Positions 8,190 through 56,724 of a stretch of DNA of 64,000 nt are shown piece after piece. Numbering within the stretch: position 1 is the first letter of the stretch; the number at the start of each line of letters is the position of its first letter. Source of the stretch: Minisyncoccia bacterium (lineage in GTDB: Bacteria > Patescibacteriota > Minisyncoccia > Phycocordibacterales > CALRBL01); the NCBI GenBank assembly GCA_038230075.1, contig JBBRNV010000002.1:62215-126214 (forward strand), in the 5' to 3' direction. The position numbers and the translations under genes were made by a program. The notes beneath the pieces were generated by a model. It had not been told where the DNA came from, made no database searches, and was given only the letters and a program-made list of their open reading frames with translations.

Positions 8190-8197
8190 TCTACAAT

Positions 8198-9580: not shown

Positions 9581-9729
9581 GCCCAATACGCTTTTGCGTT
9601 GGCAGTTGGTAGAATTTTTATAATTATCATTATTAACGATCTATAGGTTACTTGGATAAGGCCCACTTTCATTGGTTGAGCTTTTAGCCAAAGAGAACTA
9701 GAGATCAAAACTAATTAAACAATATTTTT

Positions 9730-10920: not shown

Positions 10921-10944
10921 CTTTAATCATCTAAATCTAACTAC

Positions 10945-11304
10945 ATGGCTACGGAAGCAGTAAAAAAGACAAAGAAAGCGGTAGAAAAAAGTGAAGTTAC
11001 TTCACGACTCCGCATTCGTGTCCGAGCCTACGACTCAAAGATCCTTGATGCATCAGTAAAGCAAATCATGGACACAGCTCTTCGATTTGATGCAAAGGTT
11101 CTTGGCCCGGTTCCACTTCCAACTGAGATTAAGAAATATACAGTTAACCGCGCTGCGTTCGTATACAAAAATGCTCGAGAGCAGTTTGAAATGCGAATTC
11201 ACAAGCGATTGATCGACATTGTTAATCCAAATGCACGTATCATTGAAGCGCTTACTAACATAAGCCTTCCATCAGGTGTGAACATTGATGTGAAGATGAT
11301 GTAA
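10945..11304 (+). CDS. rpsJ: 30S ribosomal protein S10
   Basis: RIRVRAYD ... PLPT motif, plus position immediately after tuf. Confidence 0.95.
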   Translation: MATEAVKKTKKAVEKSEVTSRLRIRVRAYDSKILDASVKQIMDTALRFDAKVLGPVPLPTEIKKYTVNRAAFVYKNAREQFEMRIHKRLIDIVNPNARIIEALTNISLPSGVNIDVKMM

Positions 11305-11317
11305 TAAATATACTGAC

Positions 11318-11959: not shown

Positions 11960-11972
11960 TTAATTAACTATC

Positions 11973-42873: not shown

Positions 42874-42880
42874 ACAAGTA

Positions 42881-43867: not shown

Positions 43868-43868
43868 A

Positions 43869-44609
43869 TTATTCTTTGATAAACCAAAAACATCCGCATG
43901 CGTATTTTTCCTTTTCCAAAAGCGCCTTATCAGCGTTTATAATTAAACCACCGTCTTTTTCATATTCTGGAATAAATGAGAACTCTTTAAGTGTTAATCC
44001 ACTCATCATGCTCATTACAAGATCGTATGTGTAAATTCGATGAGCATTAAATTCAATCATGGCATCTTTCCCAATTGGAGTTACATAAAGAAATGATCCT
44101 CCTTTTTTAATGACACGCTTAATTTCGTTAATTGCTTTAATGTCACCCTTGGCATCGAATGGGTCTCCGTATCGTCCAAGACCAACATGCTCAATGGTGT
44201 GCATGCATGAAATACTTTCGATGCTGTTGTCAGGGAAGGGGAGGCTATGTAAGTTTCCTTCCTTACTTTGCAAATTACTTAGATAGAGTGCTGCTGGCCG
44301 ATAGTCATAAAAGTTAACAGGAATGAATGCAGAAACGATTCCACAAAAGTAGAGACTTGAACTTATGTCTGTGTGTAGGGTAGGATTTATTTCCTTCACT
44401 TTTCGTGCGGCCCACGCAGTGTGATACACATAATGTCTATCGAATGCAGTTCCAACAGTTTTGTCTCTTATCTGAGGATTAAGGTCAGCAAAGTTAACTG
44501 AGAATCTTTCATCTTTGATTCGATTAAATACATAGTAGTCAGCCAAAACAAAAGGACTAAGAATGAAACGGAGTAGGGTCTTAAGATTTTGTTTTATATC
44601 AGTATTCAT
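43869..44609 (-). CDS. Putative SAM-dependent methyltransferase (DUF268-like)
   Basis: CMHTIEHVGLGRYGD and KKGGSFLYVTP motifs resemble class I methyltransferases found in glycan loci. Confidence 0.4.
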   Translation of the reverse strand: MNTDIKQNLKTLLRFILSPFVLADYYVFNRIKDERFSVNFADLNPQIRDKTVGTAFDRHYVYHTAWAARKVKEINPTLHTDISSSLYFCGIVSAFIPVNFYDYRPAALYLSNLQSKEGNLHSLPFPDNSIESISCMHTIEHVGLGRYGDPFDAKGDIKAINEIKRVIKKGGSFLYVTPIGKDAMIEFNAHRIYTYDLVMSMMSGLTLKEFSFIPEYEKDGGLIINADKALLEKEKYACGCFWFIKE

Positions 44610-45535
44610 AGTTGTTCAATAAGGTGTTGTGCTGCAATTGTATCAGTGAAATTGTCATTAATGTATTCTCTGGGTGTAAATGTTGAATATTTTGAAATAA
44701 AAGTTGAAAGATCTCGCTCAAAGCTTGTATCGGTGAAAAACATTCCTGTTTGTTCGGTAAGATAAGGCGCCCCAATCTTTCCCTCAACATCAATGGTTGT
44801 TTGAGGATCGACATATCGCTGAGCATTATATACAAGGGTTGGAACATTTCGAGCCCAGGCTTCAAGTAGTGCTAATCCCTGACTTTCACTTCTTTGAAGA
44901 TATATTACATAAGGTGTTTGCTCAAGTTGGGTAAAATATTCTTCTTGAGTGAAGTCTCCATATGAAAGAAGTTTGTATGATATTTTTTCTTTATGTAATG
45001 TTGCGATAACACTTTCATACAAAGTCTGGTCAATGTGTTTTTTAACGACAAGTACTTGTCCACCTTTTGTTGAGCTTTTTTGAGGAAGATTAACACCTGC
45101 ACCCCACACAATAATTTTTCCTGTAAGTTCAGGAGTTATTCGCTCATACAGTTGTTGAACCCATACTGAGGGAACGACAACTTTATCAATTAACGAGTTG
45201 ATAATTATTTTATGATGATCAAGTGGAGAGACGATAATGTTTGGTCCGGCGTACAATTCTTCAATAAACCCTTTTTGTTTTGCATGAATAGCCCACGAAA
45301 GTGTATCCACTCCGGAAAGTACTAATACTTTTTTATATACTTCATTTTCGTTTTTCGGATTTACATTAAAAGAGTGATTAATACCAGAAAGACCTCGTGT
45401 GAGACTTGAAAAAACTGACTGTGGCCCACGAGTTTTTCCTAACCAATCTTTCAGTCGATGCTTAATATATGAAGGAGAAAAGACTGAAGAACCAGGCCTT
45501 TCAGTTAAAATAGTAAGAGGAGAATCTGAATTCAT
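44606..45535 (-). CDS. Putative GT-B fold glycosyltransferase (GT4-like C-terminal motif)
   Basis: ESQGLALLEAWARNVPTLV resembles the GT4 E-x7-E motif. Confidence 0.45.
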   Translation of the reverse strand: MNSDSPLTILTERPGSSVFSPSYIKHRLKDWLGKTRGPQSVFSSLTRGLSGINHSFNVNPKNENEVYKKVLVLSGVDTLSWAIHAKQKGFIEELYAGPNIIVSPLDHHKIIINSLIDKVVVPSVWVQQLYERITPELTGKIIVWGAGVNLPQKSSTKGGQVLVVKKHIDQTLYESVIATLHKEKISYKLLSYGDFTQEEYFTQLEQTPYVIYLQRSESQGLALLEAWARNVPTLVYNAQRYVDPQTTIDVEGKIGAPYLTEQTGMFFTDTSFERDLSTFISKYSTFTPREYINDNFTDTIAAQHLIEQL

Positions 45536-45563
45536 ACGAGAATTATATCATGCCATCCTTTCC

Positions 45564-46496
45564 TTATTCGAGCGAGCGAAGTGTCTTGCTTCTTATTTGA
45601 TACAAGACTTTATAGAGTCTTTCGCCTCCAAGAGCTGCTAATAGTCGAGCGTAGTTTGCAATGCCAAATGGATGATGTTTGATAGCCTTTTTAAATGAAA
45701 CAACTGCCTCTTTTTTGTTTCCTAAGTGCAGGTGAAGTCGGGCAATTGCATGATATACCGCACTTAAACTCTTCGGGTACTTTAAGAATGTTTTTTGATA
45801 TTTGGTAATAATTGATTCGAGATCTTGCGCTCTTCGATGTGCTGTTCGTTCAAGAGATGACGTATTGTTATCATGAATATGATAGGTAACCAACGAGTCA
45901 TTAAGAAATTTATATAACACATTGTTTGCAACCATTCGTGCAACAAGGTCATAATCTGCAAATACTAAAAGACCAGTATCGAGTGTTCCAACACGATCGA
46001 GTACAGACTTTTTAATGACGAGCATGCTGAATGTATTGAAATATGAACCAGCAAGAACTTTTTCGACAGGAAGATTATCTTTCTCTAATTTTAAAACACC
46101 TGTAGTCTTCTTCTTTGTTTTGTCGTGATGTTGGTCAACATTTGAAGCGAAGAAACCAATATCAGGATTCTTTTTAACAACATCGTATATTTTTTGCAAT
46201 TTATCTTCTCTCCACTCATCGTCATGATCGAGAAAGGCAACGTATTCTCCTTTAGCAACATTAATGCCAATGTTCGTTGGAATCGTTGGTCCTCCCGAAT
46301 TAGGTGTGCTAATTACCTTGATACGAGTATCTTTCAATTGCGCTTTTTTAATGAGACGATCGGTATTGTCGTTTGATCCATCATCAACAATGATTAATTC
46401 AAAGTCAGTAAATGTTTGATTGAGCACACTTTTAATTGTTCGCTCAATAAAACGTTCACTATTATATGCCGGAATGATGACAGAAAATGTAGGCAT
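45564..46496 (-). CDS. Glycosyltransferase family 2
   Basis: FSVIIPAYNSERFIERTIKSVLNQTFTDFELIIVDDGSND. The start is placed at the internal ATG at 46496 so the gene abuts the rmlC-like stop instead of overlapping it by 140 bp. Confidence 0.8.
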   Translation of the reverse strand: MPTFSVIIPAYNSERFIERTIKSVLNQTFTDFELIIVDDGSNDNTDRLIKKAQLKDTRIKVISTPNSGGPTIPTNIGINVAKGEYVAFLDHDDEWREDKLQKIYDVVKKNPDIGFFASNVDQHHDKTKKKTTGVLKLEKDNLPVEKVLAGSYFNTFSMLVIKKSVLDRVGTLDTGLLVFADYDLVARMVANNVLYKFLNDSLVTYHIHDNNTSSLERTAHRRAQDLESIITKYQKTFLKYPKSLSAVYHAIARLHLHLGNKKEAVVSFKKAIKHHPFGIANYARLLAALGGERLYKVLYQIRSKTLRSLE

Positions 46497-46497
46497 G

Positions 46498-47028
46498 TTA
46501 TTGAAGATGGGGAAGTTCTTTGTCTTTGCTCGATACGATTGGATTTTTAACACCCCAGTCGATTCCAAGTTGTGGATCATCATATCGTATGCCACTTTCA
46601 GCAGTCTTATTGTATTCTCGAGTGCATCCATAAAGTACATAAGCTTCGTTTGAAAAAACAGAAAATCCGTGTGCGAATCCTACAGGGATATAAATGAAGG
46701 TATTGTCTTCTCCTTGAAGATCAATCGTTATCACTTTTTTATAGGTAGGAGATTCTGGACGCGCATCAACAATGACATCGCGAATGCTTCCAGCAATTAA
46801 GTACAAGAACTTTCCTTGAGCACTTTCTCCTTTTTGAAAATGAAGACCTCGCACCACATCTTTTTTAGAATACGAAAGATTATATTGAGGAAATGCATCC
46901 GCTAATTGTAAATGTTGAAATTCAGTAATTTTACAGATTTCCATGAAATAACCACGGTCGTCATAAAACTTATCAGATTTAACCATCTTTACTTCAGGAA
47001 TTTCGAGGTCAATTACTTTAAATGCCAT
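46498..47028 (-). CDS. rmlC: dTDP-4-dehydrorhamnose 3,5-epimerase-like cupin (RmlC family)
   Basis: RGLHFQ and GFAHGF motifs, at 176 aa. Confidence 0.8.
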   Translation of the reverse strand: MAFKVIDLEIPEVKMVKSDKFYDDRGYFMEICKITEFQHLQLADAFPQYNLSYSKKDVVRGLHFQKGESAQGKFLYLIAGSIRDVIVDARPESPTYKKVITIDLQGEDNTFIYIPVGFAHGFSVFSNEAYVLYGCTREYNKTAESGIRYDDPQLGIDWGVKNPIVSSKDKELPHLQ

Positions 47029-47037
47029 ATATGTTAA

Positions 47038-47532
47038 TTAATATGCGGTTACTAAAACGGAATATTTTTTTCCAATTCGTACCGCATGAACGATCTTAAG
47101 AAGGGTTGGGCAATCGATTGTTACTGAGGTTGGCTTTTCTTCCAATATAAATTTCTGTATATGAATCCAAGCTGGTTCAGTTTCATAATCAAATAACTGT
47201 TTATCAATATATTTTGTATTTGAAGAAAACTTATTTTTGATCCATCGAGATAGTTTTCCTGAGGCTCCAGCAATGGCAATTTGTTTTCCTTGGGTATTGT
47301 TAGCAATAGTCATTTCTCTTGAAAGAAGCGCTACAAGGTCGGGGTGAGTGACAGAGCTTTTGTCTGCTCCATCTTTCATTACAATGTTTGTAACGCTAGG
47401 GAGATAGAAGGTGATAAAGGGCCACATTGCCTGTTTGAACATTTCTGTCTGATCTTCTGGAAAAGAAGATGCACCATGAAATGCCTTATCAACTTCGGCT
47501 AATTCTTTTTGATTGAGATGTATGGTGATCAT
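47038..47532 (-). CDS. Hypothetical protein
   Basis: ORF within the glycan operon. No motifs. Confidence 0.45.
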   Translation of the reverse strand: MITIHLNQKELAEVDKAFHGASSFPEDQTEMFKQAMWPFITFYLPSVTNIVMKDGADKSSVTHPDLVALLSREMTIANNTQGKQIAIAGASGKLSRWIKNKFSSNTKYIDKQLFDYETEPAWIHIQKFILEEKPTSVTIDCPTLLKIVHAVRIGKKYSVLVTAY

Positions 47533-47538
47533 ATTTTT

Positions 47539-48237
47539 TTATACTACCTGCATTTTATTCATGGCGTAATCAAATCGAAGCACGCCTGCGTGAGATAGTT
47601 CTTTGAAAGGAAGGTTCGAAGTGTGTACATAGTGATATAACCACGCTTCACTATTCATCTTATCTTTTGCTAGTTTCTCAGGATTCATACTATCAACGTA
47701 TCCAAGGAAGGCTGTTGGCTTCATGGCAAAAATCATATCGTTGTAATTTAAAGGAGCAGACAATATTTTTGACCCATCACTAAAATGATAGGGAGGGTTA
47801 CAGATTAAAATATCTTCGGTTGGATTTGTATTCATTTCGTCAATAAATACAGGGAAACATAACACTTGTCGTGATGTGTAATACACAACCCAATCGTATG
47901 TTTTTAAAAGTTCTCGATGTTTTTCAACGACAGCTTGGCACATAACATATTCACCAGCTCCCTTACTCTTTGAACCAAGTGTATTGTTGTTAATCAGCAT
48001 AAGGTCTTTGATTGCAGGATGTCCGTATAGAGAGGTGAGTGAAGAAGACAATTCATCTTTTGAAGAAACTGTATTATCAATCACAATTAAATGAATATTG
48101 GGATTTTTATCAGCACGCCTGAGCATTCCATGTAAGGCAACTGCGTATAAATCTTGTCGATCTTTTTCATCATATGTTTCGGCACTTCGATACTTGTATG
48201 CTCCTAAACAGATAAATAAAATCTTTGGTTGATCCAT
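47539..48237 (-). CDS. Hypothetical protein
   Basis: ORF within the glycan operon. No motifs. Confidence 0.45.
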   Translation of the reverse strand: MDQPKILFICLGAYKYRSAETYDEKDRQDLYAVALHGMLRRADKNPNIHLIVIDNTVSSKDELSSSLTSLYGHPAIKDLMLINNNTLGSKSKGAGEYVMCQAVVEKHRELLKTYDWVVYYTSRQVLCFPVFIDEMNTNPTEDILICNPPYHFSDGSKILSAPLNYNDMIFAMKPTAFLGYVDSMNPEKLAKDKMNSEAWLYHYVHTSNLPFKELSHAGVLRFDYAMNKMQVV

Positions 48238-48238
48238 C

Positions 48239-49369
48239 TTATTTTTTAAAATTTTTAATTGTTTTGATAACGTATTTTTGCTCAGTAGTTGTTAATCCTG
48301 GAAATACAGGAAGAAGTACAATTTTCTGCCATTCAGATTCTGTGACAGGAACGTCAGCTTTGTACTTTCGATACATTTTAAATTGATGATTTGGACTATA
48401 GTGCACACCAGTTGCAATGTTGTTATCCATCATATAGCCAATAAACTCACTTCGAAGTTTTGGGTCATGAATTCGCACTGCGTAGTTATGTCGAACTGTT
48501 CGAGTGTAAGGTTTTTCAACAGGAAGGGTGAGCCACTTCACTTCTTTTAATTCTTTGTCGTACATTGCTGCAATTGATCGTCGTTTATCGTTTGCTTTTT
48601 CGAGTTTTGAAAGTTGAACTAAACCAAGGCATGCATTAATATCATTCATGTGATACTTGTATCCCAGTTCTTCAACATCGTATTGCCAGTGATAGCCTTT
48701 ATTTACGATGTTTCGTTCGTACGTACTCTTGCTGATTCCAAGCCATCGTCGTCGTCGAAGAATAGCATCCCACTCAGCGTTGTTGAACGTCAACATTCCT
48801 CCATCTCCCATAGCTAAGTTTTTTACTGCATGAAAACTAAATGAAGTGATGTCTGCCACATTTCCAACTCGTTTCTTTTTATACATTGATCCACAAGCGT
48901 GCGCAGCGTCTTCGATAACAAATAAATTATGCTTCTTGGCAATTGCCATGATTTTGTCCATGTCACACGCATGACCTCCGTAGTCGACACAAATAATTCC
49001 CACAGTTTTTGGAGTGATAAGTGCTTCAATCTTTTTTGCATCCATATTTAACGTATCTCTTTCGATATCACAAAAGACAGGAATACCTTGTTCATACAAA
49101 ATCGCATGATTAGTTGAAACGAATGTGAGGGAAGTAGTAATTACTTCTTTCCCTTTAATATTAAAAAGTGAGAGTGCCAAATGAAGACCAGATGTGGCTG
49201 AGTTTACGGCAACGGCATGTGTTGAACCAACAAAAGCAGCAAATTTATCTTCAAATTCTTTTGTTTTAGGCCCAAGTCCGATCCATCCTTTTTCAAAGGG
49301 TTCTTTAAGTGAATCTAATTCTCGGTGGTCATACGATGGTCTGAAAAGAGGGATGTGTTTTTTGATCAT
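48239..49369 (-). CDS. DegT/DnrJ/EryC1/StrS-family PLP-dependent sugar aminotransferase
   Basis: Fold-type I aminotransferase, typical of ArnB/WecE-like enzymes (active-site Lys in SFHAVKNL context). The start is placed at the internal ATG at 49369. Confidence 0.8.
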   Translation of the reverse strand: MIKKHIPLFRPSYDHRELDSLKEPFEKGWIGLGPKTKEFEDKFAAFVGSTHAVAVNSATSGLHLALSLFNIKGKEVITTSLTFVSTNHAILYEQGIPVFCDIERDTLNMDAKKIEALITPKTVGIICVDYGGHACDMDKIMAIAKKHNLFVIEDAAHACGSMYKKKRVGNVADITSFSFHAVKNLAMGDGGMLTFNNAEWDAILRRRRWLGISKSTYERNIVNKGYHWQYDVEELGYKYHMNDINACLGLVQLSKLEKANDKRRSIAAMYDKELKEVKWLTLPVEKPYTRTVRHNYAVRIHDPKLRSEFIGYMMDNNIATGVHYSPNHQFKMYRKYKADVPVTESEWQKIVLLPVFPGLTTTEQKYVIKTIKNFKK

Positions 49370-49370
49370 G

Positions 49371-51101
49371 TTATTCGATAGTAATAGTCTTATATTCTTT
49401 ATTATTCCAGGCCGGATTGCCTTGATCCATGAAATCAATCTTATCATAATTGAACGTTTTGACCCTGTAATTGGTCCAATTGGCGAAATATGGACGTTCT
49501 TGGCATACAATGCCCGCAATGGCGTCTATTCCGGCCCCTGCATCGATAAAAACCTTATCACACTCATTCTTGAGAAGCGAAACGAGGCCAAGTTTTGCGT
49601 GTCCTGCGCCCACCAAGAAGATTTTAGCTTTTGAAGCTTTGATTTGTGGAATTAGTTTCTGAGCAAGAGCGTCGATGTCGTCTGCTGCACCTTTCTGAGG
49701 AACTTCTACATATTCAGCAAATGATGTAATTCCTAAATATGTTCGATACATGTCTCGTTTTTCTAATTCTTTAATCACTTCCATTTTTTCTCTTCCAGCG
49801 ATGATTCCAATTTCTGTAGGGAAGTTTTTGAAAATCCACTTAGTGCTTACTAGTGCATACACCGCTTCGAGAGGTTGAGCATTAAGAGAAGCTAGTAGTT
49901 TTGCTTTGGCTGCATATACTTCACCTCGCCACTTTTTGTGGAAGAAAATCGCTAGTCGGGGAATGATGCCAAATATACTAAGTACTTTTAATTTTATCTC
50001 AATAATTTTTGACCAATATTTATTTTGATATACAAAATGAAAATTTCGTTTAAAAGCTTTTTGCAACAGTCGTTCAATAAATTCTGATAGCACTAATGAT
50101 CGCCAATCTTTTCGTTCTCGATGTTCAATGGCAGTAGTGATGAGGTCGTGATGCCAAAAGAGCGATTGATGATAAGGAGTGTTTATTTTGTCATACCCAA
50201 GAAGAGTTCCGCGATTTCCTGGCTTTGCACTTCCTTTAGGAATTGCACGAAGAAAGAAAAAGTCTCCATCACTTGCTCTTAGAATGCTATAGCCTTTATT
50301 GTTTGATGCTGCCCACTTTACTTTCTCTGTGAGTGAAATAAATGATTGTTGAAGAGATTGTTTGATTAATCCTTTATCGGTAAGACCTACATGATGACTT
50401 TTGTTGTCAGTATTAATACCCTGTACAAAATATTGGCTGGCAATTGGTGCAAACATTCTTCGCTTGAATACTAAAATGTCGTGAGGCCACCACTGATAGC
50501 CAAATCCGTCGAGGGTATTTTTCATTTCTTCTCGTAATGCATCAGCTGCTTCTTTCCAGTAGACTAACCCTCGTTTTTCAATTTCTCGAATGACATAGTC
50601 TTTTGGTTGGGGATTCAAATGTTGGCCATCATGATCTTCGTGTTGGTTTGACCAGGTTACAAATAAAATATCTTTTGCTGCCTTGCTTAGATTGTCGATA
50701 AAATCTTGCTCACCCTCTTTTTCAATATGTTCACCAACTTCTGAACAATTGACCATGTCATACGCCTTTTCAAACGTAAAAGGCTTTGCAAGATCGGCTA
50801 TGTGAACAACATTTTTAATAATTGGAGCTGCATATTGTTTTGACCATTCAAAATAGTCATACCCAACAACTTCAACATGTGGATTGTTTTCCTTTAATGT
50901 TTCGATCAGTCTGCCGTTATTACATCCTAAGTCTGCAAATGAGTTTACAATACTCATATCAAAGATCTTTGTTAAAGCATTGAAATAGGCCCTGTATGCT
51001 GTCATAGGACGAGTATATTCTTCTTCTTTATATGTATCCTCAACTTCTTTTTTCATGAGTATTTGTTGTTCTTGATTATATACAGGTGGGTACTCAAACA
51101 C
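49371..51101 (-). CDS. Two-domain protein: an N-terminal class I SAM-dependent methyltransferase plus a large C-terminal domain of unknown function
   Basis: Methyltransferase motif I LGCNNGRLIE at the N-terminus. The C-terminal roughly 330 aa has no assignable motif. Confidence 0.5.
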   Translation of the reverse strand: MFEYPPVYNQEQQILMKKEVEDTYKEEEYTRPMTAYRAYFNALTKIFDMSIVNSFADLGCNNGRLIETLKENNPHVEVVGYDYFEWSKQYAAPIIKNVVHIADLAKPFTFEKAYDMVNCSEVGEHIEKEGEQDFIDNLSKAAKDILFVTWSNQHEDHDGQHLNPQPKDYVIREIEKRGLVYWKEAADALREEMKNTLDGFGYQWWPHDILVFKRRMFAPIASQYFVQGINTDNKSHHVGLTDKGLIKQSLQQSFISLTEKVKWAASNNKGYSILRASDGDFFFLRAIPKGSAKPGNRGTLLGYDKINTPYHQSLFWHHDLITTAIEHRERKDWRSLVLSEFIERLLQKAFKRNFHFVYQNKYWSKIIEIKLKVLSIFGIIPRLAIFFHKKWRGEVYAAKAKLLASLNAQPLEAVYALVSTKWIFKNFPTEIGIIAGREKMEVIKELEKRDMYRTYLGITSFAEYVEVPQKGAADDIDALAQKLIPQIKASKAKIFLVGAGHAKLGLVSLLKNECDKVFIDAGAGIDAIAGIVCQERPYFANWTNYRVKTFNYDKIDFMDQGNPAWNNKEYKTITIE

Positions 51102-51123: not shown

Positions 51124-52839
51124 TTAATCGATAAGAAAGATTTTCTTTGCAATTGGTCGAGTTTTTGGAAAGAGAAAGATTGCGACGCTATTTCCAAAAT
51201 ATGAAATAAGTGTTGCAAACGCAGAGCCAGCTATTCCATAGTGAGGAATGAGAAGAAGATTGAGTACAACATTTAATACCATGGCAAACAATGAGCTCAT
51301 GAGTACAGCAAACTGATTTCTTTCAGAAATGAAAATTTGATTCACTAAGTAGGTAAGCGATGTGCCAATTCCTGCCCAAATATAAATTTGAAGAACAATA
51401 GCTCCTGGAAGGAAGGCTTCTCCATAGAGAATTCGCATAATTGGTTTTGCGAGTAATGAAACAGGAAGGCTGACACCAACGGCCAGAATGACTAAAAATA
51501 AACTGAGTCTTTTAATTCGACTGAAATATAATGCCTCTGAAGTTTTTTTACTGTTTACAATTGCAGGGTAGAGGGAGCTAATAATGATGCCGGGTAAGAA
51601 ATACCATCCTTCTGCCAAACGCACCGCTGCATCGTATACTCCGACAGCAGTAGTGCTCACCATTGATTTTAAGAGCACCTGATCAATTCGTGAATAGATC
51701 ACTGCAAATCCTGAAGAGATCATGAGAGGAAGTGCGTGGCGAAGCATTAACTTCGCTGTTTCTTTGTCGAAACTCCATTGAAAGATTGATCCATAGTGTT
51801 TGTATCGAATGATGATGTACATAATCATGTACAGAATTGGTTCGATAACAAAAATTGCCGCAAGATAAATTACTCCTTTATTTGCATAGACGGTGTAAAT
51901 TTTAATTGCAGAAAGAATAGCAATAACAAAAATAGAAATAACTGCAGGATATTTTGATTTAACATGAGATTGGAATTCATACGCGATAATATTCCATTGA
52001 TTGAAAAGGTATGAAAGTGAAGCTATGGCAATAAGAAGGAAAGAAAGAGAATCACCATGGAGGGCTCGAGCTACCACAATAAGAATGGCGCTTGTTAAGA
52101 ATCCTGCAATAAACTTGAGTGTCAATGCTGTACCTAAAATTTTATTCTTATCTTCAGGTCGTTCAATTAATTCTCGAAAGAGTATCTGGTCAATTCCAAG
52201 TCCTGCGATAAATGAACAAAGCGTTGCAAAACTAACTGCATAGCTCAATTCTCCGTTGTTCAAGGGCCCAAGATGTCTGATGACAAAAATGTTTGCAATG
52301 AATGATATGCCCAAACTAACAACGCGAGCCGAAAACATCCATCCTGTATTTTTGAAATATTTAAGGAAGCCGGCATCGCTTCGTACATGGTGTGCTGCAT
52401 CATCAAGTCGATATACTAACTTTGTTTTCCAATCTTCCTTTCCTGTCATAACTCGTTTCACTTTAATAAACTCTCCTTTAATGTTGTGAGCGAATAATCC
52501 GTCGGTTAAGTATTTATCACCAATAACAACATAGTCTTTTCTAAATTCTTCGGGAATCTCTTCAATCACTTTTTTACTAGGCTTTCGATGGTGTTTTGAA
52601 ATGAAAAGAATTCCTAATAGTTCTGCGAAGTGGTTATTTCGTTTGTCATCTCTTTTATTTGATGAAAGAAAGACATTATTGTGCTTCTTGAGTAATTCAA
52701 CCTTATTGATTGTTTCTTGATCGAGCGAATGTTCTCCGTCGGCAACGAGTGTTCCGTCAATATCGAGAATGATAGTGTGGTTGTGGATATGATCGACTGA
52801 GAGTTGTTTGAAGAATTCCATGAGTTTATTTTGCAACAC
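51124..52839 (-). CDS. Fusion of a HAD-superfamily phosphatase (YqeG-like) to a Wzx/MOP-family polysaccharide flippase
   Basis: N-terminal ILDIDGTLV (HAD motif I) with ...GDKYLTD (motif IV-like). The C-terminal roughly 400 aa has about 12 TM helices typical of Wzx 'polysaccharide biosynthesis protein' transporters. Confidence 0.6.
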   Translation of the reverse strand: MLQNKLMEFFKQLSVDHIHNHTIILDIDGTLVADGEHSLDQETINKVELLKKHNNVFLSSNKRDDKRNNHFAELLGILFISKHHRKPSKKVIEEIPEEFRKDYVVIGDKYLTDGLFAHNIKGEFIKVKRVMTGKEDWKTKLVYRLDDAAHHVRSDAGFLKYFKNTGWMFSARVVSLGISFIANIFVIRHLGPLNNGELSYAVSFATLCSFIAGLGIDQILFRELIERPEDKNKILGTALTLKFIAGFLTSAILIVVARALHGDSLSFLLIAIASLSYLFNQWNIIAYEFQSHVKSKYPAVISIFVIAILSAIKIYTVYANKGVIYLAAIFVIEPILYMIMYIIIRYKHYGSIFQWSFDKETAKLMLRHALPLMISSGFAVIYSRIDQVLLKSMVSTTAVGVYDAAVRLAEGWYFLPGIIISSLYPAIVNSKKTSEALYFSRIKRLSLFLVILAVGVSLPVSLLAKPIMRILYGEAFLPGAIVLQIYIWAGIGTSLTYLVNQIFISERNQFAVLMSSLFAMVLNVVLNLLLIPHYGIAGSAFATLISYFGNSVAIFLFPKTRPIAKKIFLID

Positions 52840-53185
52840 TAAAACTTAAGATCATGATGATGCCGATAATAAGAAATCCATAACCAACAATTTGAAGAGG
52901 AGAGATCTTTTCACCGAATTGAAGAAGGGCAAATGAATTGATAATTAAAAAACTTGCTCCAACCATAATAGGATATGCAACACTGATTGGCATTGAACGA
53001 AGTGCGAGAAAATAAAAGAGGGCATTAAGTGCAAAGCAAAAAAGACCAATGATAAATAAATAGTTTGAAGTAATGATACTCAAGCTGAATCCGTTAAAAA
53101 CGATTCCTTTCTGTGCGCCAGCCTTCAACAGAACATTTGCTGTCCCATTCAAGATAAAAGCAATGATGAGAAAAAGAATATACAT
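52826..53185 (-). CDS. Small 4-TM EamA/SMR-like membrane protein (ArnE/ArnF-like flippase subunit candidate)
   Basis: 119 aa with four hydrophobic helices and an LALRSMPISVAYPI motif typical of small EamA/DMT proteins. Confidence 0.5.
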   Translation of the reverse strand: MYILFLIIAFILNGTANVLLKAGAQKGIVFNGFSLSIITSNYLFIIGLFCFALNALFYFLALRSMPISVAYPIMVGASFLIINSFALLQFGEKISPLQIVGYGFLIIGIIMILSFSVAK

Positions 53186-53186
53186 A

Positions 53187-54830
53187 CTATGACGTTATTT
53201 TATCCCAGTAGACATTCTTCGAGTCGTTTCGTAGTAATAACTTCACTCCTTTATATGTCACCAACTTATAGTTCTTTGAACACCATTCTTCAAGATTTTG
53301 TGAAGCCCATGAACAATAATGGTTATTAAAAGCGAGATATACAATGACATCAGGCTTCTTTTCTATATATGTATAGTTCAAATCGTATTTATTGTGTCCT
53401 GGAATACTATACATTCCTCGAGGATTCGAAAGTGCGCCAGATAAGTCTGGTGCAAGTGTTGCAATATATGCGTCTGTTTTTCCTAAAGGATCGAGAGAGT
53501 ATCGTTCAGTCAAATATGGAATTGTTCCTGCCCAAAATGATGAGATTGTTGCATTTGGAGTTGTTAACTCGTTGATAACAAGTGAAGTGTCAATATTTTC
53601 TTTGTTATTTCGAGTTTGATAAGGCTCTAGTCTCATGAAGTCGTAGTGATAGTCGAAAGGAATAAGAACAAGAAGGGAAGTGACAATGACGCTTGCGAAC
53701 GCTAAAAATAAATCTTCTCGAAGATGAAATGATTTTTTTAATTTTACGATTGAAAGAATAAATGCAATGAAAAAGAGAATGGTGTACGGAACTGTCATTC
53801 GCCAGAATGGAGGCCACGGATCACCACCTGCCCAAATTTGATACGCAGCATATGCTCCAAAACATAGTGTAAACATGGTGATGTATTTGTACTGATCGAT
53901 AAACAAATTCTTGAGCTTGTTGGTGAAGCTTGTTCCAAACTCCCATATATAGACAAAGAAAAACAGGACAACAGGAATAATAAAGAGTGAAATTCGAGTA
54001 ATGAATGGACTAAAGAACCCTATACCGTTTTTGAGGCGATCCTCGAGTGGCATACCAGTTGCTTTTAATATGTACGTATTTGGATATGAGAGATGATAAA
54101 AATAAAGTCTAAATAGTTGATATCCAATGATAGGAAGTGCGGTAATAATAGCTTCAACAACGGTTGCTAAGATTCCATTCTTTTCTTTATATCGTTGAAT
54201 TGCTCGAAATGCGTAAAAGATAGCAATAAAAAGTGCGCCTTCTGGTCGAGTAAGATATACGAGTGATAAAAGAAGTGCTAGGCCAGAATAAATCTTTCCA
54301 TGACGTATTGGTTTGAGAGACAAAGAAATAATAAAGAGAACGAGGGTGGTGAGAAATCCTGTTTCCATTCCAAAAACTGACCAATAAATAACTGGGTACC
54401 ATGCCATAGTCAAAAGAAGTGATATAAAAAGAATGAAATCACTTCGATCTTCAGGTTTTAACAATGACGTTACAATGTTTTTAACGAGATACACATTCAA
54501 AGCTAAACAAACAACTCCAAGGAGTTGAATAAAAAGCATTGAATAATTTGTTCCAAATACTGCAATTGCTCCTGCCATGATAAATACCATAAGTGGATTG
54601 GTGAATCCTTCAATATGTTCTCCCATATTCCACACCAAGCCATTTCCAAGAACTAGATTATGTGCGTATCTCATTGAAATCATTGCGTCGTCAAAAAGTA
54701 CAAAATGTCTTTGATGATCAATTGCTACATACGATGAACGAGCAACGAGTACTAAAGAGAAAATGATATACAGAGCGAAACAAATCTTAAATAATGTTCT
54801 ATATATAGGTGACGTAAATGTTGTAAACAT
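53187..54830 (-). CDS. GT-C superfamily integral-membrane glycosyltransferase (ArnT/PMT/AftA-like) with a roughly 180-aa C-terminal extracytoplasmic domain
   Basis: More than 10 TM helices, an acidic FDDAM motif in the first loop, and a soluble C-terminal domain. Confidence 0.5.
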   Translation of the reverse strand: MFTTFTSPIYRTLFKICFALYIIFSLVLVARSSYVAIDHQRHFVLFDDAMISMRYAHNLVLGNGLVWNMGEHIEGFTNPLMVFIMAGAIAVFGTNYSMLFIQLLGVVCLALNVYLVKNIVTSLLKPEDRSDFILFISLLLTMAWYPVIYWSVFGMETGFLTTLVLFIISLSLKPIRHGKIYSGLALLLSLVYLTRPEGALFIAIFYAFRAIQRYKEKNGILATVVEAIITALPIIGYQLFRLYFYHLSYPNTYILKATGMPLEDRLKNGIGFFSPFITRISLFIIPVVLFFFVYIWEFGTSFTNKLKNLFIDQYKYITMFTLCFGAYAAYQIWAGGDPWPPFWRMTVPYTILFFIAFILSIVKLKKSFHLREDLFLAFASVIVTSLLVLIPFDYHYDFMRLEPYQTRNNKENIDTSLVINELTTPNATISSFWAGTIPYLTERYSLDPLGKTDAYIATLAPDLSGALSNPRGMYSIPGHNKYDLNYTYIEKKPDVIVYLAFNNHYCSWASQNLEEWCSKNYKLVTYKGVKLLLRNDSKNVYWDKITS

Positions 54831-54839
54831 AATGTTTTG

Positions 54840-55874
54840 TTAGAAAAATATTTTAGCTACTTTAAGAATGCCTTGTTTCCATGGAACTCTGTGTGTTACT
54901 CCAGATCTTCCTTCGAAGTTCTTCATGTTTTCTAAATACCACTCATAATTTCGAACCAATGCCTGTTTATTTGAGTATTTGGGCTTATATCCTAAAACTC
55001 TTTCTGCTTTTTCAATTGAAACAAATGAATCTTCAGATGCTGTTTCATATACCCATTTATAAAGTGGTGAAAGTTTCAAAAGTTCAAGAAGGCGAAGTGT
55101 CCATATAATAGGAGTTGCAGGGAGGCCGACAATGTTTCTATGGAATCCTGCTTTATCAAGTACTGCCTGATAGTCTTCTTTCATGGTAGTAAATTCTTTT
55201 GCTCCAATATTAAACGTGTCATTTACTTTGTTTGCGTCGAGAGTTGCACATAAATAAATTGCTTCGCATAAATCTTCAACGTCGAGTAGTTGATATCGAT
55301 TCTTTCCATTTCCAATCATAGGAAAATTCTTTCCATCTTTTGCCCAATCATAAAAGAGTGCAAATACTCCGAGTCGTTCTGGTCCAACAAAAGACTTAGG
55401 ACGAATAATTGGAATACATATTCCTTTTGCTCGATATTCAACACAGAGTGCTTCTGCTTCAATTTTTGCCTTGCCGTATGGTCCAACACCATCAAGTTTG
55501 TCTGTCTCAAGAAGAGGGTGGTGGTCGGGAATTCCGTATACTGCTGTTGATGAGATGTGAACCACTCGCTTAACATCACATGAGAGCGCAGCATCAAGAA
55601 CATTCTTTGTGCCAGCAATATCTGTTGAAAGAATTTCTTCTTCAGAATAAAGAGGAAGGGCAGCAGCGGTGTGAATTACCATATCGACTCCTTTCATTGC
55701 TGTTTCAATATCTGACTTGTTTCGAATGTCTCCAACTATTGATGTAATTTGATCTTTTTCAGGATAGTCAAAAATATCTTTGTCTAAAGAAACAATAGTG
55801 TGGCCCTTCTCAAGGAGAAACCTCACCATGTTGATTCCTAAAAATCCTGATCCGCCGGTAATAAGAAATTTCAT
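54840..55874 (-). CDS. NAD-dependent epimerase/dehydratase (extended SDR)
   Basis: TGGSGFLG Rossmann motif and YGKAK catalytic YxxxK. The start is placed at the internal ATG at 55874. Confidence 0.8.
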   Translation of the reverse strand: MKFLITGGSGFLGINMVRFLLEKGHTIVSLDKDIFDYPEKDQITSIVGDIRNKSDIETAMKGVDMVIHTAAALPLYSEEEILSTDIAGTKNVLDAALSCDVKRVVHISSTAVYGIPDHHPLLETDKLDGVGPYGKAKIEAEALCVEYRAKGICIPIIRPKSFVGPERLGVFALFYDWAKDGKNFPMIGNGKNRYQLLDVEDLCEAIYLCATLDANKVNDTFNIGAKEFTTMKEDYQAVLDKAGFHRNIVGLPATPIIWTLRLLELLKLSPLYKWVYETASEDSFVSIEKAERVLGYKPKYSNKQALVRNYEWYLENMKNFEGRSGVTHRVPWKQGILKVAKIFF

Positions 55875-55881
55875 GACTCTA

Positions 55882-56724
55882 TTATATATGATGATAAAAA
55901 ATGAGATACATGAAGCAAATCCACAAAATTCCACTTAAAAGAAGAATTGGATCAGATACGACGAGCTTTTCAGGATATTCACTTTTATTGCTTGTAAAAA
56001 TAAGAAGGGTGTAACGAATGACACCAAGGAGTACAAAGAAAACTGAGAAGACTGCAAAAGGCGAACTCAAAACTAATACGGTATAGAGACTGTAAGAGAT
56101 AACTGCCAATGTTGAAGCAAGAATTAATAATCCTTTCAAAAATTCAGGAGTGTAGTGTTCAAGTACTGCTCGTTTGTGTTCTTGTTGAAATTCAGAAAGT
56201 CGTTTTCCAACAATGAGAAAGAGTGACATAAAGATGGTGCATAATAAAAGCCATTCAGATATATAGATGGAAGCAGCTATTCCTCCGATAACGATTCGAA
56301 TTAAATAAAAACTAGCGATGAGAAGAATATCAACAACAGCCACGTGTTTAAAATAAAATGTGTAGAGAAAGGTAAGTGCAATATATATGAGCATTACTCC
56401 CCAGATCTGAGGAATAAAGAAGGTGATGAGTAATAGAACAGCAACCGCAAGGCAGCAAAGAAGAGTTAACGCTTGCTTTCGAGAGACCTTTCCAGAAGCC
56501 ACGGGGCGATTCTTTTTTTGACTATGTTTTTGATCTTGTTCGATATCAACAAGATCATTAATGATGTATACACAACTTGCGGTGAGACAGAAGACGACAA
56601 AAGCAATAATGGTTGCATCTACTTTTGCAACATTAAAAATATCTTTGGCAAAGAAAAGAGGAACAAAAATGAAAAGATTTTTGATCCAACTGTACGGACG
56701 AAGCAATGCGACAATGCTAGGCAT
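55882..56724 (-). CDS. UbiA-family prenyl-phosphate glycosyl (phosphoribosyl) transferase, DPPR synthase-like
   Basis: NDLVDIEQDQKHSQKKNRPVASG (NDxxDxxxD...RP..SG) motif in a 7-8 TM protein. Confidence 0.65.
   Translation of the reverse strand: MPSIVALLRPYSWIKNLFIFVPLFFAKDIFNVAKVDATIIAFVVFCLTASCVYIINDLVDIEQDQKHSQKKNRPVASGKVSRKQALTLLCCLAVAVLLLITFFIPQIWGVMLIYIALTFLYTFYFKHVAVVDILLIASFYLIRIVIGGIAASIYISEWLLLCTIFMSLFLIVGKRLSEFQQEHKRAVLEHYTPEFLKGLLILASTLAVISYSLYTVLVLSSPFAVFSVFFVLLGVIRYTLLIFTSNKSEYPEKLVVSDPILLLSGILWICFMYLIFYHHI

What the first reader, a model, noticed from the sequence alone, without database searches (positions are those of the whole stretch)
51124..56724. Module resembling polyprenyl-phospho-pentose (DPA/Arn-like) donor synthesis: UbiA DPPR-synthase-like, SDR, GT-C, SMR-like and HAD phosphatase fused to a flippase
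The upstream end of the locus has five parts. First, a UbiA-family enzyme with the NDxxDxxxD...RP..SG motif of decaprenyl-phosphate phosphoribosyltransferases. Second, an extended-SDR epimerase/dehydratase. Third, a GT-C membrane glycosyltransferase. Fourth, a 119-aa four-TM EamA/SMR-type protein of the kind that flips lipid-linked sugars (ArnE/F; Rv3789-like role). Fifth, a HAD phosphatase fused to a Wzx flippase. This part-list parallels the mycobacterial decaprenyl-phospho-arabinose route (DPPR synthase, then phosphatase, then epimerase, then GtrA-like flippase, then GT-C transferases) and the Arn aminoarabinose route (with the DegT aminotransferase and a GT2 a few genes away). A lipid-linked pentose or aminopentose donor pathway in a CPR organism, and the phosphatase-flippase fusion in particular, appear undescribed.
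Basis: inference. Interest (0 to 1): 0.6.

Follow-up and report, generated by a model that had tools for sequence, protein, structure and literature searches.

The report
Lipid-linked pentofuranose glycosylation operon in CPR
This is a five-gene operon in a candidate-phyla-radiation bacterium that most likely builds a lipid-carried five-carbon sugar from PRPP and attaches it to a surface glycan outside the membrane, a kind of pathway known from mycobacteria and described in general form in 2024, so it is a new example and not a new mechanism.

Summary
All five genes are where the finding says, on the minus strand, separated by only 1-9 nt.

**What each gene is**
- The UbiA protein is a polyprenyl-phosphate phosphoribosyltransferase. 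It passes the NCBIfam decaprenyl-phosphate phosphoribosyltransferase (DPPR-synthase) cut-off, and its only PDB relative is Rv3806c.
- The 547-aa membrane protein is a GT-C enzyme. Its only sequence relative in PDB, and its best fold match, is the arabinofuranosyltransferase AftB.
- The other three are a GalE-like SDR, a 4-TM SMR protein and a capless HAD phosphatase.

**Conservation.** The order UbiA-SDR-GT-C-SMR-HAD recurs in three other Patescibacteria genomes. One of them has a PRPP synthetase gene directly upstream.

**Comparison with known systems.** The set matches the "three-component" pentofuranose glycosylation systems of Kelly et al. 2024 (PMC11127046). It is therefore not undescribed. 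The Arn/aminoarabinose reading is not supported.

**The HAD-Wzx fusion.**
- It is real: an independent assembly carries it base for base.
- It is a singleton: 119 related flippases lack the HAD domain.
- In the relatives with the full operon the HAD is a free-standing protein.
- The same small HAD family is often fused to UbiA, and sometimes to GtrA or GT-C proteins, so the fusion looks like one more membrane tether.

**Still open.** I could not determine which pentose the SDR makes. This SDR family is unusually conserved, at 71-81% identity across many phyla.

Interest is modest.

The parts
55882..56724 (-). Polyprenyl-phosphate 5-phosphoribosyltransferase (UbiA family, DPPR-synthase type), 280 aa, about 9 TM helices.
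   Evidence: NF008978 scores 209.2 bits against a cut-off of 207, while all other UbiA clades score 48 bits or less. The only PDB hits are Rv3806c entries 8j8j and 8j8k, E=4.6e-42, covering residues 3-271. Motifs NDLVDIEQD at 56-64 and GKRLSE at 173 are present. It is 57-59% identical to the syntenic gene in L001, L005 and L006.
54840..55874 (-). Extended SDR, GalE-like (344 aa). Proposed epimerase acting on polyprenyl-P-ribofuranose.
   Evidence: PF01370 E=5.8e-42. TGGSGFLG and YGKAK motifs are present. The start is 7 nt after the UbiA stop. It is 74-81% identical in the syntenic CPR operons. A DPPRS-type UbiA lies within 8 kb in 24 of the 85 loci that carry an SDR hit. It is 50% identical to a haloarchaeal homologue that sits next to a DPPR-synthase gene. 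It is 32% identical to an SDR in the Rhizobium CCGE531 pentofuranose locus.
53187..54830 (-). GT-C fold glycosyltransferase, AftB-like (547 aa). Proposed extracytoplasmic pentofuranosyltransferase.
   Evidence: The only NCBIfam hit is NF041481, the terminal beta-(1->2)-arabinofuranosyltransferase, E=6.8e-10. The only PDB sequence hit is AftB 9dlf, E=8e-7 with the single sequence and 1.8e-14 with the family profile. The AlphaFold model has pLDDT 95.4 and pTM 0.94. Foldseek ranks AftB first (E=1e-8), then ArnT, PglB, AglB and AftA. D48, T77, E156, R195 and T252 align with AftB D62, T91, E172, R221 and T274.
52826..53185 (-). SMR/EamA-type 4-TM protein (119 aa). Proposed flippase for the polyprenyl-P-pentose.
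   Evidence: Weak, below-cut-off matches to EamA, Multi_Drug_Res, ArnF (34 bits) and ArnE (31 bits) and to EmrE in PDB, E=0.016. It is 57-64% identical in the syntenic operons. It is 28% identical, E=7e-12, to a reading frame lying about 1.2 kb downstream of the HAD-UbiA gene in the B. multivorans locus.
52384..52821 (-). HAD-IIIA type (capless) phosphatase domain, N-terminal about 146 aa of the 565-aa fusion protein. Proposed polyprenyl-P-ribose-5-phosphate phosphatase.
   Evidence: TIGR01668 YqeG 52 bits, TIGR01662 HAD-IIIA 38 bits, PF09419 PGP_phosphatase. DIDGT and GDKYLTD motifs are present. It is 42-44% identical to the free-standing 147-158-aa proteins that end the operon in L001, L005 and L006. 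The family has only 338 representatives, and 19 of the best 150 are fused to a DPPRS-type UbiA.
51124..52383 (-). Wzx (MOP/PST) flippase domain, C-terminal about 419 aa of the fusion protein. Most likely the flippase of the locus's Und-PP-linked repeat unit.
   Evidence: PF01943 E=1.2e-23 and PF13440. There are 119 listed homologues of 322-725 aa, nearly all 400-460 aa; none aligns over the HAD region and none has a precomputed HAD domain. The alignment shows a join that removes about 7 C-terminal HAD residues and about 14 N-terminal Wzx residues and leaves TM1 intact. The sequence is identical in the independent Logan contig L092.
56839..59283 (+). Context: divergently transcribed Wzy_C (O-antigen ligase/polymerase-like) protein with C-terminal TPR repeats, 814 aa.
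   Evidence: PF04932 E=6.5e-21 plus TPR families. A homologous Wzy_C-TPR gene lies in the L001 locus as well.
42067..51101 (-). Context: rest of the surface-glycan locus. In order it holds a 576-aa methyltransferase-domain protein, a DegT aminotransferase (48239-49369), two unknowns, an RmlC-like epimerase, a GT2-TPR protein, an unknown, a DUF268 methyltransferase, a GT11 and a GT2.
   Evidence: Pfam scans. Homologues of the 576-aa protein and of DegT are also present in L001 and L006, but not in the free-standing operon of L005.

Best explanation
The genes at 52384-56724, which include the HAD half of the fusion gene, form an operon for extracytoplasmic pentofuranosylation of a surface glycan through a lipid-linked donor.

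Proposed steps:
1. The UbiA enzyme transfers ribose-5-phosphate from PRPP to a polyprenyl phosphate on the cytoplasmic face. The enzyme family is shown by homology. The activity is inferred.
2. The capless HAD domain removes the 5-phosphate. This is inferred from its position in the operon and from recurrent fusion of this HAD family to DPPRS-type UbiA proteins.
3. The GalE-like SDR, with bound NAD, epimerises the lipid-linked ribofuranose at C2 or C3, to arabinofuranose or xylofuranose. This is inferred by analogy with ORF13 of Citrobacter youngae O2. The product sugar is not determined.
4. A dimer of the 4-TM SMR protein flips the donor across the membrane (inferred).
5. The AftB-like GT-C enzyme transfers the pentofuranose to an acceptor outside the membrane. 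The fold and the donor-site residues are shown. The acceptor is unknown.

The acceptor is probably the glycan made by the rest of the locus (GT2, GT11, DegT, RmlC-like, Wzx, Wzy_C-TPR).

The fusion of the HAD domain to Wzx is a recent, lineage-specific in-frame gene join. It tethers the phosphatase to the membrane, as fusion to UbiA, GtrA or GT-C partners does in other genomes. It is not a conserved mechanistic coupling.
For: **UbiA**
- NF008978 scores 209.2 bits, above its cut-off of 207; other UbiA clades score 48 bits or less.
- PDB hits are only Rv3806c, at 4.6e-42.
- The catalytic N/D motif is present.

**GT-C**
- AftB is the only sequence relative and the best fold match for a model with pLDDT 95.
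- Five AftB catalytic or donor-binding residues named in PMC12041299 align with invariant or nearly invariant columns of the family alignment.

**Synteny**
- The order UbiA-SDR-GT-C-SMR-HAD recurs in L001/L009, L005/L011 and L006.
- L006 has a PRPP synthetase gene immediately upstream.

**HAD**
- Among the best 150 representatives of a family of 338, there are:
  - 19 fusions to a DPPRS-type UbiA;
  - 2 fusions to GtrA;
  - 2 fusions to PMT_2 or DUF2079 membrane proteins.

**SDR**
- It lies within 8 kb of a DPPRS-type UbiA in 24 loci, from several bacterial phyla, and next to a DPPR-synthase gene in haloarchaea.
- A 32%-identical homologue lies in the Rhizobium CCGE531 locus that Kelly et al. 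list.
- No DprE1-type FAD oxidase is present in the module.

**Precedent**
- PMC11127046 shows biochemically the same logic: a PRPP-dependent synthase, a HAD phosphatase, a 4-TM transporter, a GT-C and a single SDR epimerase.

**Fusion**
- The join is in frame and leaves the HAD motifs and Wzx TM1 intact.
- It is 100% identical in an independent assembly.
- It is absent from all 119 other Wzx homologues.

**Lipid carrier**
- BacA/UppP in the window shows that undecaprenyl-type carriers are recycled.
Against: - No biochemical data exist for any CPR member.
- The GT-C scores far below the AftB equivalog cut-off (37.6 against 1050 bits), so the donor sugar and the stereochemistry cannot be transferred from AftB.
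- The HAD is a different subfamily from the PF12710-type HAD fused to UbiA in proteobacterial systems. Only the DxDGT motif aligns.
- The SDR stands alone among housekeeping genes in most Chloroflexota and Ignavibacteria loci. It could therefore have a role that does not depend on an adjacent UbiA.
- I could not test whether the SDR is orthologous to C. youngae ORF13.
- The SMR matches to ArnE, ArnF and EmrE are all below the curated thresholds.
- No initiating phosphoglycosyltransferase was found in the part of the locus that I scanned.
Confidence: 0.75

Rival explanations
1. The module makes and uses polyprenyl-P-ribofuranose without epimerisation. The adjacent SDR serves another reaction, for example a nucleotide-sugar step for the main glycan chain.
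For: The same highly conserved SDR occurs alone, next to unrelated housekeeping genes, in most Chloroflexota, Ignavibacteria and Fibrobacteres loci. Its best characterised sequence relatives are nucleotide-sugar enzymes, with RmlB 1r6d at E=5e-23. C. youngae O1 works with ribofuranose and no epimerase.
Against: The SDR starts 7 nt after the UbiA stop. It is the most conserved gene of the operon, at 74-81% identity. A DPPRS-type UbiA lies within 8 kb in 24 loci from several bacterial phyla, and the SDR sits next to a DPPR-synthase gene in haloarchaea. UbiA homologues annotated as DPPR synthase also exist in Anaerolineae, so the lone SDR genes may simply be unlinked from their partners.
Confidence: 0.12
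2. The HAD-Wzx fusion is functionally meaningful. On this view Wzx, not the SMR protein, flips the lipid-linked pentose, and dephosphorylation is coupled to export.
For: The fusion is intact and reproducible. GtrA-HAD fusions, which are another phosphatase-flippase combination, exist in the same HAD family.
Against: It is a single occurrence: 119 other Wzx homologues and the other 149 listed HAD representatives lack it. In the relatives with the full operon (L001, L005, L006) the HAD is free-standing. Wzx lies upstream of the module in L001 and is not found in the 19.6-kb L005 and L006 loci. The SMR gene is retained in the window. By established knowledge of the family, Wzx proteins flip Und-PP-linked oligosaccharides.
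Confidence: 0.07
3. An Arn-like route: an aminopentose is made on a nucleotide, is transferred to undecaprenyl phosphate by a GT2, and is then flipped by the ArnE/F-like protein and transferred by an ArnT-like GT-C.
For: DegT scores 304 bits against the ArnB model. The SMR protein has its best NCBIfam hit on ArnF. ArnT is the third-best fold match of the GT-C.
Against: All of these scores are below their cut-offs: 304 against 631, 34 against 99 and 31 against 92. DegT scores equally well against PseC. None of the locus proteins scanned matched an ArnA-type formyltransferase or decarboxylase. The GT2 at 45564-46640 carries TPR repeats at its C-terminus and lies 5 genes away. DegT and GT2 are absent from the free-standing operon in L005. 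A PRPP-dependent UbiA enzyme has no place in the Arn route.
Confidence: 0.03
4. The UbiA protein is an aromatic or other prenyltransferase (menaquinone, ubiquinone, heme O, archaeal lipid), and the gene cluster is a coincidence.
For: Public sources label close homologues as '4-hydroxybenzoate polyprenyltransferase' or 'UbiA family prenyltransferase'.
Against: Models for those enzymes score 20-48 bits against cut-offs of 100-390, whereas DPPR-synthase models score 172-209 bits. PDB hits are only Rv3806c. The five-gene synteny is conserved, with a PRPP synthetase neighbour in L006.
Confidence: 0.01

Closest known systems
Three-component extracytoplasmic pentofuranose glycosylation systems (Citrobacter youngae O1/O2 ORF12-ORF15; Kelly et al., PNAS 2024, PMC11127046)
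   Same: The logic and nearly the same part list: a UbiA-type PRPP-dependent polyprenyl-P phosphoribose synthase, a HAD-superfamily 5-phosphatase, a 4-TM EmrE/ArnE-like transporter, a GT-C transferase, and a single GalE-like SDR as an auxiliary epimerase in place of DprE1/DprE2. The module is embedded in a surface-glycan locus. Those authors already report phosphatases that are separate or differently fused, and variable transporters.
   Different: The phosphatase here is a capless HAD-IIIA/PGP_phosphatase-like domain. The proteobacterial UbiA fusions I could examine carry the PF12710-type HAD instead. Here it is fused to Wzx, not to UbiA. The GT-C is AftB-like and shows no detectable similarity to anything in the Burkholderia multivorans locus of this system type. 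I could not test GT136 membership directly. The host is a Patescibacteria (CPR) organism, which is not among the listed examples.
Mycobacterial decaprenyl-phospho-arabinose pathway (Rv3806c, Rv3807c, DprE1/DprE2, Rv3789, AftB/Emb/Aft GT-Cs)
   Same: The first enzyme is homologous to Rv3806c (147 bits). The last enzyme is homologous to AftB, and the aligned AftB donor-site residues are conserved. The order of reactions is the same.
   Different: The phosphatase is a HAD and not a PAP2 enzyme. A single extended SDR takes the place of the FAD oxidase DprE1 plus the classical SDR DprE2. The flippase candidate is SMR-type and not GtrA-type. There is one GT-C and not a battery of them. The lipid is presumably undecaprenyl and not decaprenyl. 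The sugar product is unknown.
Pseudomonas aeruginosa group IV pilin D-arabinofuranosylation (PsPA7_6245-6249 and TfpW)
   Same: A DPPRS homologue feeds a GT-C enzyme outside Actinobacteria. The target is a surface structure. (As described in PMC11127046.)
   Different: That system uses DprE1/DprE2 homologues and a GT-C (TfpW) that acts on pilin. No pilin link has been shown here.

Membership tests
Three-component pentofuranose glycosylation system (Kelly et al. 2024) | UbiA-family polyprenyl-phosphate phosphoribosyltransferase with the conserved N/D-rich loop II and the R..E loop IV | tested here: met
   NF008978 scores 209.2 bits against a cut-off of 207. Rv3806c is the only PDB hit. NDLVDIEQD and GKRLSE are present.
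Three-component pentofuranose glycosylation system (Kelly et al. 2024) | A phosphatase that removes the ribose 5-phosphate (a HAD 'PRP' domain in the prototype) | tested here: met
   A HAD domain with DIDGT and GDKYLTD motifs is present. Its family is fused to DPPRS-type UbiA in 19 of the best 150 representatives. It is a different HAD subfamily from the PF12710-type fusions. The activity itself cannot be tested here.
Three-component pentofuranose glycosylation system (Kelly et al. 2024) | A small 4-TM EmrE/ArnE-like transporter encoded in the module | tested here: met
   The protein is 119 aa. Hydropathy gives five overlapping peaks, which I read as 4 TM helices. It has weak EamA, SMR and ArnE/ArnF matches. 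It is 28% identical, E=7e-12, to a reading frame lying about 1.2 kb downstream of the HAD-UbiA gene in B. multivorans.
Three-component pentofuranose glycosylation system (Kelly et al. 2024) | A GT-C fold glycosyltransferase that uses the lipid-linked pentose | tested here: met
   The model has pLDDT 95.4. The 14 best Foldseek hits are all GT-C enzymes. Donor use itself cannot be tested here.
CAZy GT136 (C. youngae ORF12) | Sequence similarity to the founding member ORF12 | tested here: inconclusive
There is no similarity (E>0.2) to any frame of the B. multivorans locus of that system type. The paper says ORF12's closest sequence relative is ArnT, whereas the only sequence relative here is AftB.
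AftB / terminal beta-(1->2)-arabinofuranosyltransferase (NF041481; CAZy GT89 from my own knowledge) | Score above the curated equivalog cut-off | tested here: not met
   37.6 bits against a cut-off of 1050. Only residues 30-290 align. It is a homologue, not an orthologue.
AftB / terminal beta-(1->2)-arabinofuranosyltransferase (NF041481; CAZy GT89 from my own knowledge) | Catalytic DD motif after TM1, and donor-binding residues T91, E172, R221, T274 and R372 | tested here: met
   D47-D48, T77, E156, R195 and T252 align with these residues and are invariant or at least 90% conserved in 60 homologues. R372 falls one column away from the invariant R344. GGD 365-367 aligns with G335-G336-D337.
DprE1/DprE2 two-enzyme 2'-epimerase | An FAD-dependent oxidase (FAD_binding_4) plus a classical ~250-aa SDR reductase next to the synthase | tested here: not met
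   No FAD-binding protein is present in the module or among the other locus proteins scanned. Such pairs are present in L003, L004 and L008.
C. youngae O2 ORF13-type lipid-linked pentofuranose epimerase | A cytoplasmic GalE-like SDR with TGxxGxxG and YxxxK motifs, encoded in the module | tested here: met
   TGGSGFLG and YGKAK are present and hydropathy finds no TM segment. The gene lies between UbiA and GT-C. I did not test orthology to ORF13 or the product sugar, because the sequence MH325884.1 is not in the collections.
Arn (undecaprenyl-P-L-Ara4N) pathway | ArnE/ArnF, ArnT and ArnB equivalogs and an ArnA-type formyltransferase/decarboxylase (ArnC and ArnD were not assessed) | tested here: not met
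   ArnF scores 34 against a cut-off of 99, ArnE 31 against 92, ArnB 304 against 631. ArnT is only the third-best fold hit. None of the locus proteins scanned matched an ArnA-type model.
Wzx / PST flippase (PF01943) | Polysacc_synt domain above the gathering score, in a polytopic protein | tested here: met
   84.3 bits against a cut-off of 28.2, over residues 163-428. It is 33-52% identical to 119 Wzx homologues, mostly Patescibacteria among those that carry a name.

The most novel reading that the evidence does not exclude
The SDR of this module may be a single-enzyme epimerase of lipid-linked ribofuranose. It defines a family that is 71-81% identical across many bacterial phyla and about 50% identical in haloarchaea. 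On this reading it supplies a pentofuranose donor independently of DprE1/DprE2, possibly arabinofuranose given the AftB-like transferase. Pentofuranose decoration of cell surfaces would then be a widespread and so far unnoticed trait of Patescibacteria, Chloroflexota and other largely uncultivated lineages. In Patescibacteria it could matter for attachment to hosts.
Probability: 0.25. Interest if true: 0.55.

Novelty: new member of a known kind. Interest (0 to 1): 0.3.

Why it matters
Almost nothing is known about the cell-surface chemistry of Patescibacteria, even though their episymbiotic way of life depends on surface contact. This locus gives a concrete, testable prediction: a pentofuranose (Ribf, Xylf or Araf) is added outside the membrane from a polyprenyl-phosphate donor.

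It extends the pentofuranose pathway recently defined in Citrobacter, and the mycobacterial DPA logic, to CPR. It does so with different phosphatase and GT-C families.

It also corrects public annotations, which label these UbiA proteins as 4-hydroxybenzoate polyprenyltransferases.

The mechanism itself is not new, and the eye-catching phosphatase-flippase fusion is a one-off.

Tried and rejected
- **C. youngae ORF12, ORF13 and ORF15 sequences.** I tried to obtain them for direct comparison. The supplement of PMC11127046 holds only figure legends.
- **Phage example.** The phage BK026208 listed in the paper was not returned by tblastn. The only phage hit was the unannotated record MT837543.
- **E. 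coli genomes.** blastn of a gammaproteobacterial HAD-UbiA-SDR stretch against the E. coli genomes found nothing.
- **Burkholderia multivorans locus.** It yielded a HAD(PF12710)-UbiA fusion and an SMR homologue, but no SDR or GT-C related to those of the window.
- **Fusion protein.** A PDB sequence search gave nothing. An exact look-up of P0001 was not on record, and cluster look-ups gave no names.
- **Conserved SDR neighbourhood outside CPR.** I looked for one. The neighbours turned out to be unrelated housekeeping genes.
- **Fusion as an artefact.** I considered and rejected a lost stop codon or an assembly error. The join removes residues from both partners in frame, and the sequence is identical in a second assembly.
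- **PRPP synthetase.** I checked the window for one and found none.
- **Literature.** Searches found no paper linking DPPR-synthase homologues to CPR.

Full report
**Observation**

The region 51124-56724 holds five consecutive minus-strand ORFs. An identical 13,644-nt contig from an independent Logan assembly of run SRR19962015 carries the same gene calls.

With the start codons used by relatives, the genes are:

| Gene | Coordinates | Length |
|---|---|---|
| UbiA | 55882-56724 | 280 aa |
| SDR | 54840-55874 | 344 aa |
| Polytopic membrane protein | 53187-54830 | 547 aa |
| 4-TM protein | 52826-53185 | 119 aa |
| HAD-Wzx fusion | 51124-52821 | 565 aa |

The gaps between them are 7, 9, 1 and 4 nt, so this is an operon.

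**The synthase**

- The UbiA protein scores 209.2 bits on NCBIfam NF008978, decaprenyl-phosphate phosphoribosyltransferase, whose cut-off is 207. It scores 172-183 bits on two sister models.
- Models for 4-hydroxybenzoate, menaquinone, heme O, chlorophyll and archaeal-lipid prenyltransferases score 48 bits or less.
- Its only PDB relatives are the two Rv3806c entries, at E=4.6e-42 over residues 3-271.
- The N/D-rich motif (NDLVDIEQD) and the GKRLSE motif are present. Their counterparts were shown to matter in Rv3806c and in C. youngae ORF15.

**The transferase**

- The 547-aa protein has no Pfam hit.
- Its only NCBIfam hit is the terminal beta-(1->2)-arabinofuranosyltransferase model (E=6.8e-10, far below the equivalog cut-off).
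- Its only PDB sequence hit is AftB 9dlf, at E=8e-7, improving to 1.8e-14 with a 60-sequence profile.
- An AlphaFold model built on that alignment is very confident, with pLDDT 95.4 and pTM 0.94.
- Foldseek against the PDB ranks AftB first (1e-8). ArnT, PglB, AglB, AftA and ALG9/12 follow, all of them GT-C enzymes.
- The AftB paper names D62 of a DD motif as the catalytic residue, and T91, E172, R221, T274 and R372 as contacts with the donor analogue.
  - In the alignments D48, T77, E156, R195 and T252 of the window protein occupy the first five positions.
  - These residues are invariant or at least 90% conserved among 60 homologues.
  - R372 falls one column from the invariant R344, and the GGD motif just before it is shared.
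- The protein is therefore a GT-C enzyme whose donor site resembles that of a polyprenyl-P-pentofuranose user. It is not an oligosaccharyltransferase-type enzyme. It is a homologue of AftB, not an orthologue.

**Conservation**

- The order UbiA-SDR-GT-C-SMR-HAD recurs in a Candidatus Parcubacteria MAG (L001/L002/L009), in a MAG labelled Saccharibacteria (L005/L011) and in GCA_964520505.1 (L006).
- Identity to the window proteins in those three operons:

| Protein | Identity |
|---|---|
| UbiA | 57-59% |
| SDR | 74-81% |
| GT-C | 51-65% |
| SMR | 57-64% |
| HAD | 42-44% |

- In L005 the five genes stand alone, flanked by ribosomal protein genes upstream and unrelated genes downstream. The DegT and GT2 genes of the window are therefore not part of the core.
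- In L006 a PRPP synthetase gene lies directly upstream of UbiA. This fits a PRPP-consuming first step.
- Other Patescibacteria loci carry permutations of the same set.
- All named close homologues of the window's Wzx and UbiA come from Patescibacteria or from unclassified MAGs labelled only 'bacterium'. This supports the CPR origin of the window.

**The phosphatase and the fusion**

- The N-terminal ~146 aa form a capless HAD of the IIIA/YqeG/PGP_phosphatase type, with the DIDGT and GDKYLTD motifs.
- An exhaustive HMMER search of 1.84 billion representatives found only 338 relatives.
- Architectures among the best 150:

| Architecture | Count |
|---|---|
| Free-standing (200 aa or less) | 121 |
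| HAD fused to a DPPRS-type UbiA (the architecture of C. youngae ORF15) | 19 |
| GtrA-HAD | 2 |
| HAD fused to PMT_2 or DUF2079 membrane proteins | 2 |
| GT2-HAD | 1 |
| HAD-GT4-like | 1 |
| Lgt-fragment-HAD | 1 |
| Over 200 aa, no partner domain identified | 2 |
| HAD-Wzx (this window) | 1 |

- This ties the HAD family to the pathway. It also shows that tethering the domain to a membrane partner is common.
- The proteobacterial HAD-UbiA fusions that I could inspect use a different HAD subfamily, PF12710. Only the nucleophile motif aligns with the window domain.
- All 119 other Wzx homologues align only over the Wzx part, and none has a precomputed HAD domain. Nearly all are 400-460 aa.
- The alignment shows that the fusion lacks about 7 C-terminal HAD residues and about 14 N-terminal Wzx residues, and that Wzx TM1 is intact.
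- In L001 the Wzx gene lies upstream of the module.
- The fusion is therefore a genuine but lineage-specific rearrangement.
- It is topologically sensible, because both ends are cytoplasmic. That statement rests on established knowledge of Wzx topology.

**The SDR**

- It is a GalE-like extended SDR.
- From my own knowledge of SDR motifs, its SSTAVYG stretch lacks the acid/base pair found in 4,6-dehydratases and decarboxylases. This fits an epimerase or a simple oxidoreductase.
- No DprE1-type FAD oxidase is present. DprE1/DprE2-like pairs do accompany DPPRS homologues in L003, L004 and L008.
- The precedent is ORF13 of C. youngae O2. It is a single SDR that converts the ribofuranose donor into the xylofuranose donor.
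- A scan of one genome per species found at least 579 relatives. The best 80 were 71-81% identical and spread over many groups:
  - Patescibacteria classes
  - Chloroflexota
  - Ignavibacteria
  - Fibrobacteres
  - Phycisphaerae
  - Spirochaetales
  - Bacillota
  - Gammaproteobacteria
- A DPPRS-type UbiA lies within 8 kb in 24 of the 85 loci with an SDR hit, and in 11 of 14 Patescibacteria loci.
- Haloarchaeal plasmids carry a 50%-identical SDR next to a DPPR-synthase gene, two GT-C genes and a PHP-domain protein.
- A 32%-identical SDR sits in the Rhizobium sp. CCGE531 locus listed by Kelly et al..
- In most Chloroflexota and Ignavibacteria loci, however, the SDR has unrelated neighbours.
- Which epimer it makes, and why it is so conserved, remain open.

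**Comparison with what is known**

- Kelly et al. 2024 (PMC11127046) showed genetically and biochemically a pathway built from the following parts:
  - a polyprenyl phosphoribose synthase;
  - a HAD phosphatase;
  - a 4-TM transporter;
  - a GT-C enzyme;
  - an optional SDR epimerase.
[quoted passage not shown] Among these the phosphatase may be separate, the transporter varies, and some systems have several epimerases and GT-Cs.
- The window's module is a member of this kind. It mixes the Citrobacter features (HAD, SMR, single SDR) with a mycobacterial-type AftB-like transferase.
- The Arn reading fails its membership tests.

**Verdict**

It is wrong that such a pathway is undescribed.
- The fusion is a real singleton and probably has little mechanistic weight.
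- Interest is modest. The most interesting loose end is the very conserved SDR family that pairs with DPPRS-type UbiA genes across both prokaryotic domains.

Noticed in passing
It is about 50% identical to haloarchaeal proteins that sit next to DPPR-synthase homologues. It is far more conserved than its operon partners, and in most Chloroflexota and Ignavibacteria genomes it stands alone among housekeeping genes.
   Followed up: partly
L006 6197-7054 (+), GCA_964520505.1: A PRPP synthetase gene lies immediately upstream of the UbiA gene of the syntenic operon. The 64-kb window has no such gene.
   Followed up: partly
proteins P0269, P0373, P0270, P0259, P0283, P0357: The small HAD family is also fused to GtrA-type flippase domains, to PMT_2 and DUF2079 membrane proteins, and to GT2 and GT4-like domains. 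It is a promiscuous fusion partner of lipid-linked-sugar machinery.
   Followed up: partly
L008 9001-11151 (+), 3.9-Mb metagenomic contig: A 716-aa protein combines a partial UbiA domain with an AftB-like GT-C that is 36% identical to the window protein. It lies beside a separate HAD, a full UbiA gene and DprE1-like and DprE2-like genes. It looks like an arabinofuranose version of the same pathway.
   Followed up: no
L091 (Haloterrigena sp. KLK7 plasmid) 6136-12059: An archaeal counterpart: a DPPR-synthase homologue, a PHP-domain protein (a possible substitute phosphatase), the conserved SDR, and two GT-C genes annotated as Dol-P-Man mannosyltransferase and GT39.
   Followed up: no
window 49371-51101 (-): A 576-aa protein has an N-terminal methyltransferase domain and a large unassigned C-terminal part with a weak WecG/TagA-like match. 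It follows the module here and in L001 (55% identity) and is present in L006 (39%). Its function is unknown.
   Followed up: no
window 56839-59283 (+): An 814-aa Wzy_C (O-antigen ligase/polymerase-like) protein with C-terminal TPR repeats is transcribed divergently from the operon. A similar gene lies in the L001 locus. It could be a polymerase, a ligase or a protein O-oligosaccharyltransferase.
   Followed up: no
window 40093-42102 (+): A TrwB/TraG-like type IV coupling ATPase gene (669 aa) overlaps the end of the glycan locus by a few codons.
   Followed up: no
homologues of window 55882-56724 in public sources: Close Patescibacteria homologues of the synthase are labelled '4-hydroxybenzoate polyprenyltransferase' (JGI) or generic 'UbiA family prenyltransferase' (NCBI). 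These are probably mis-annotations or under-annotations of a phosphoribosyltransferase.
   Followed up: no
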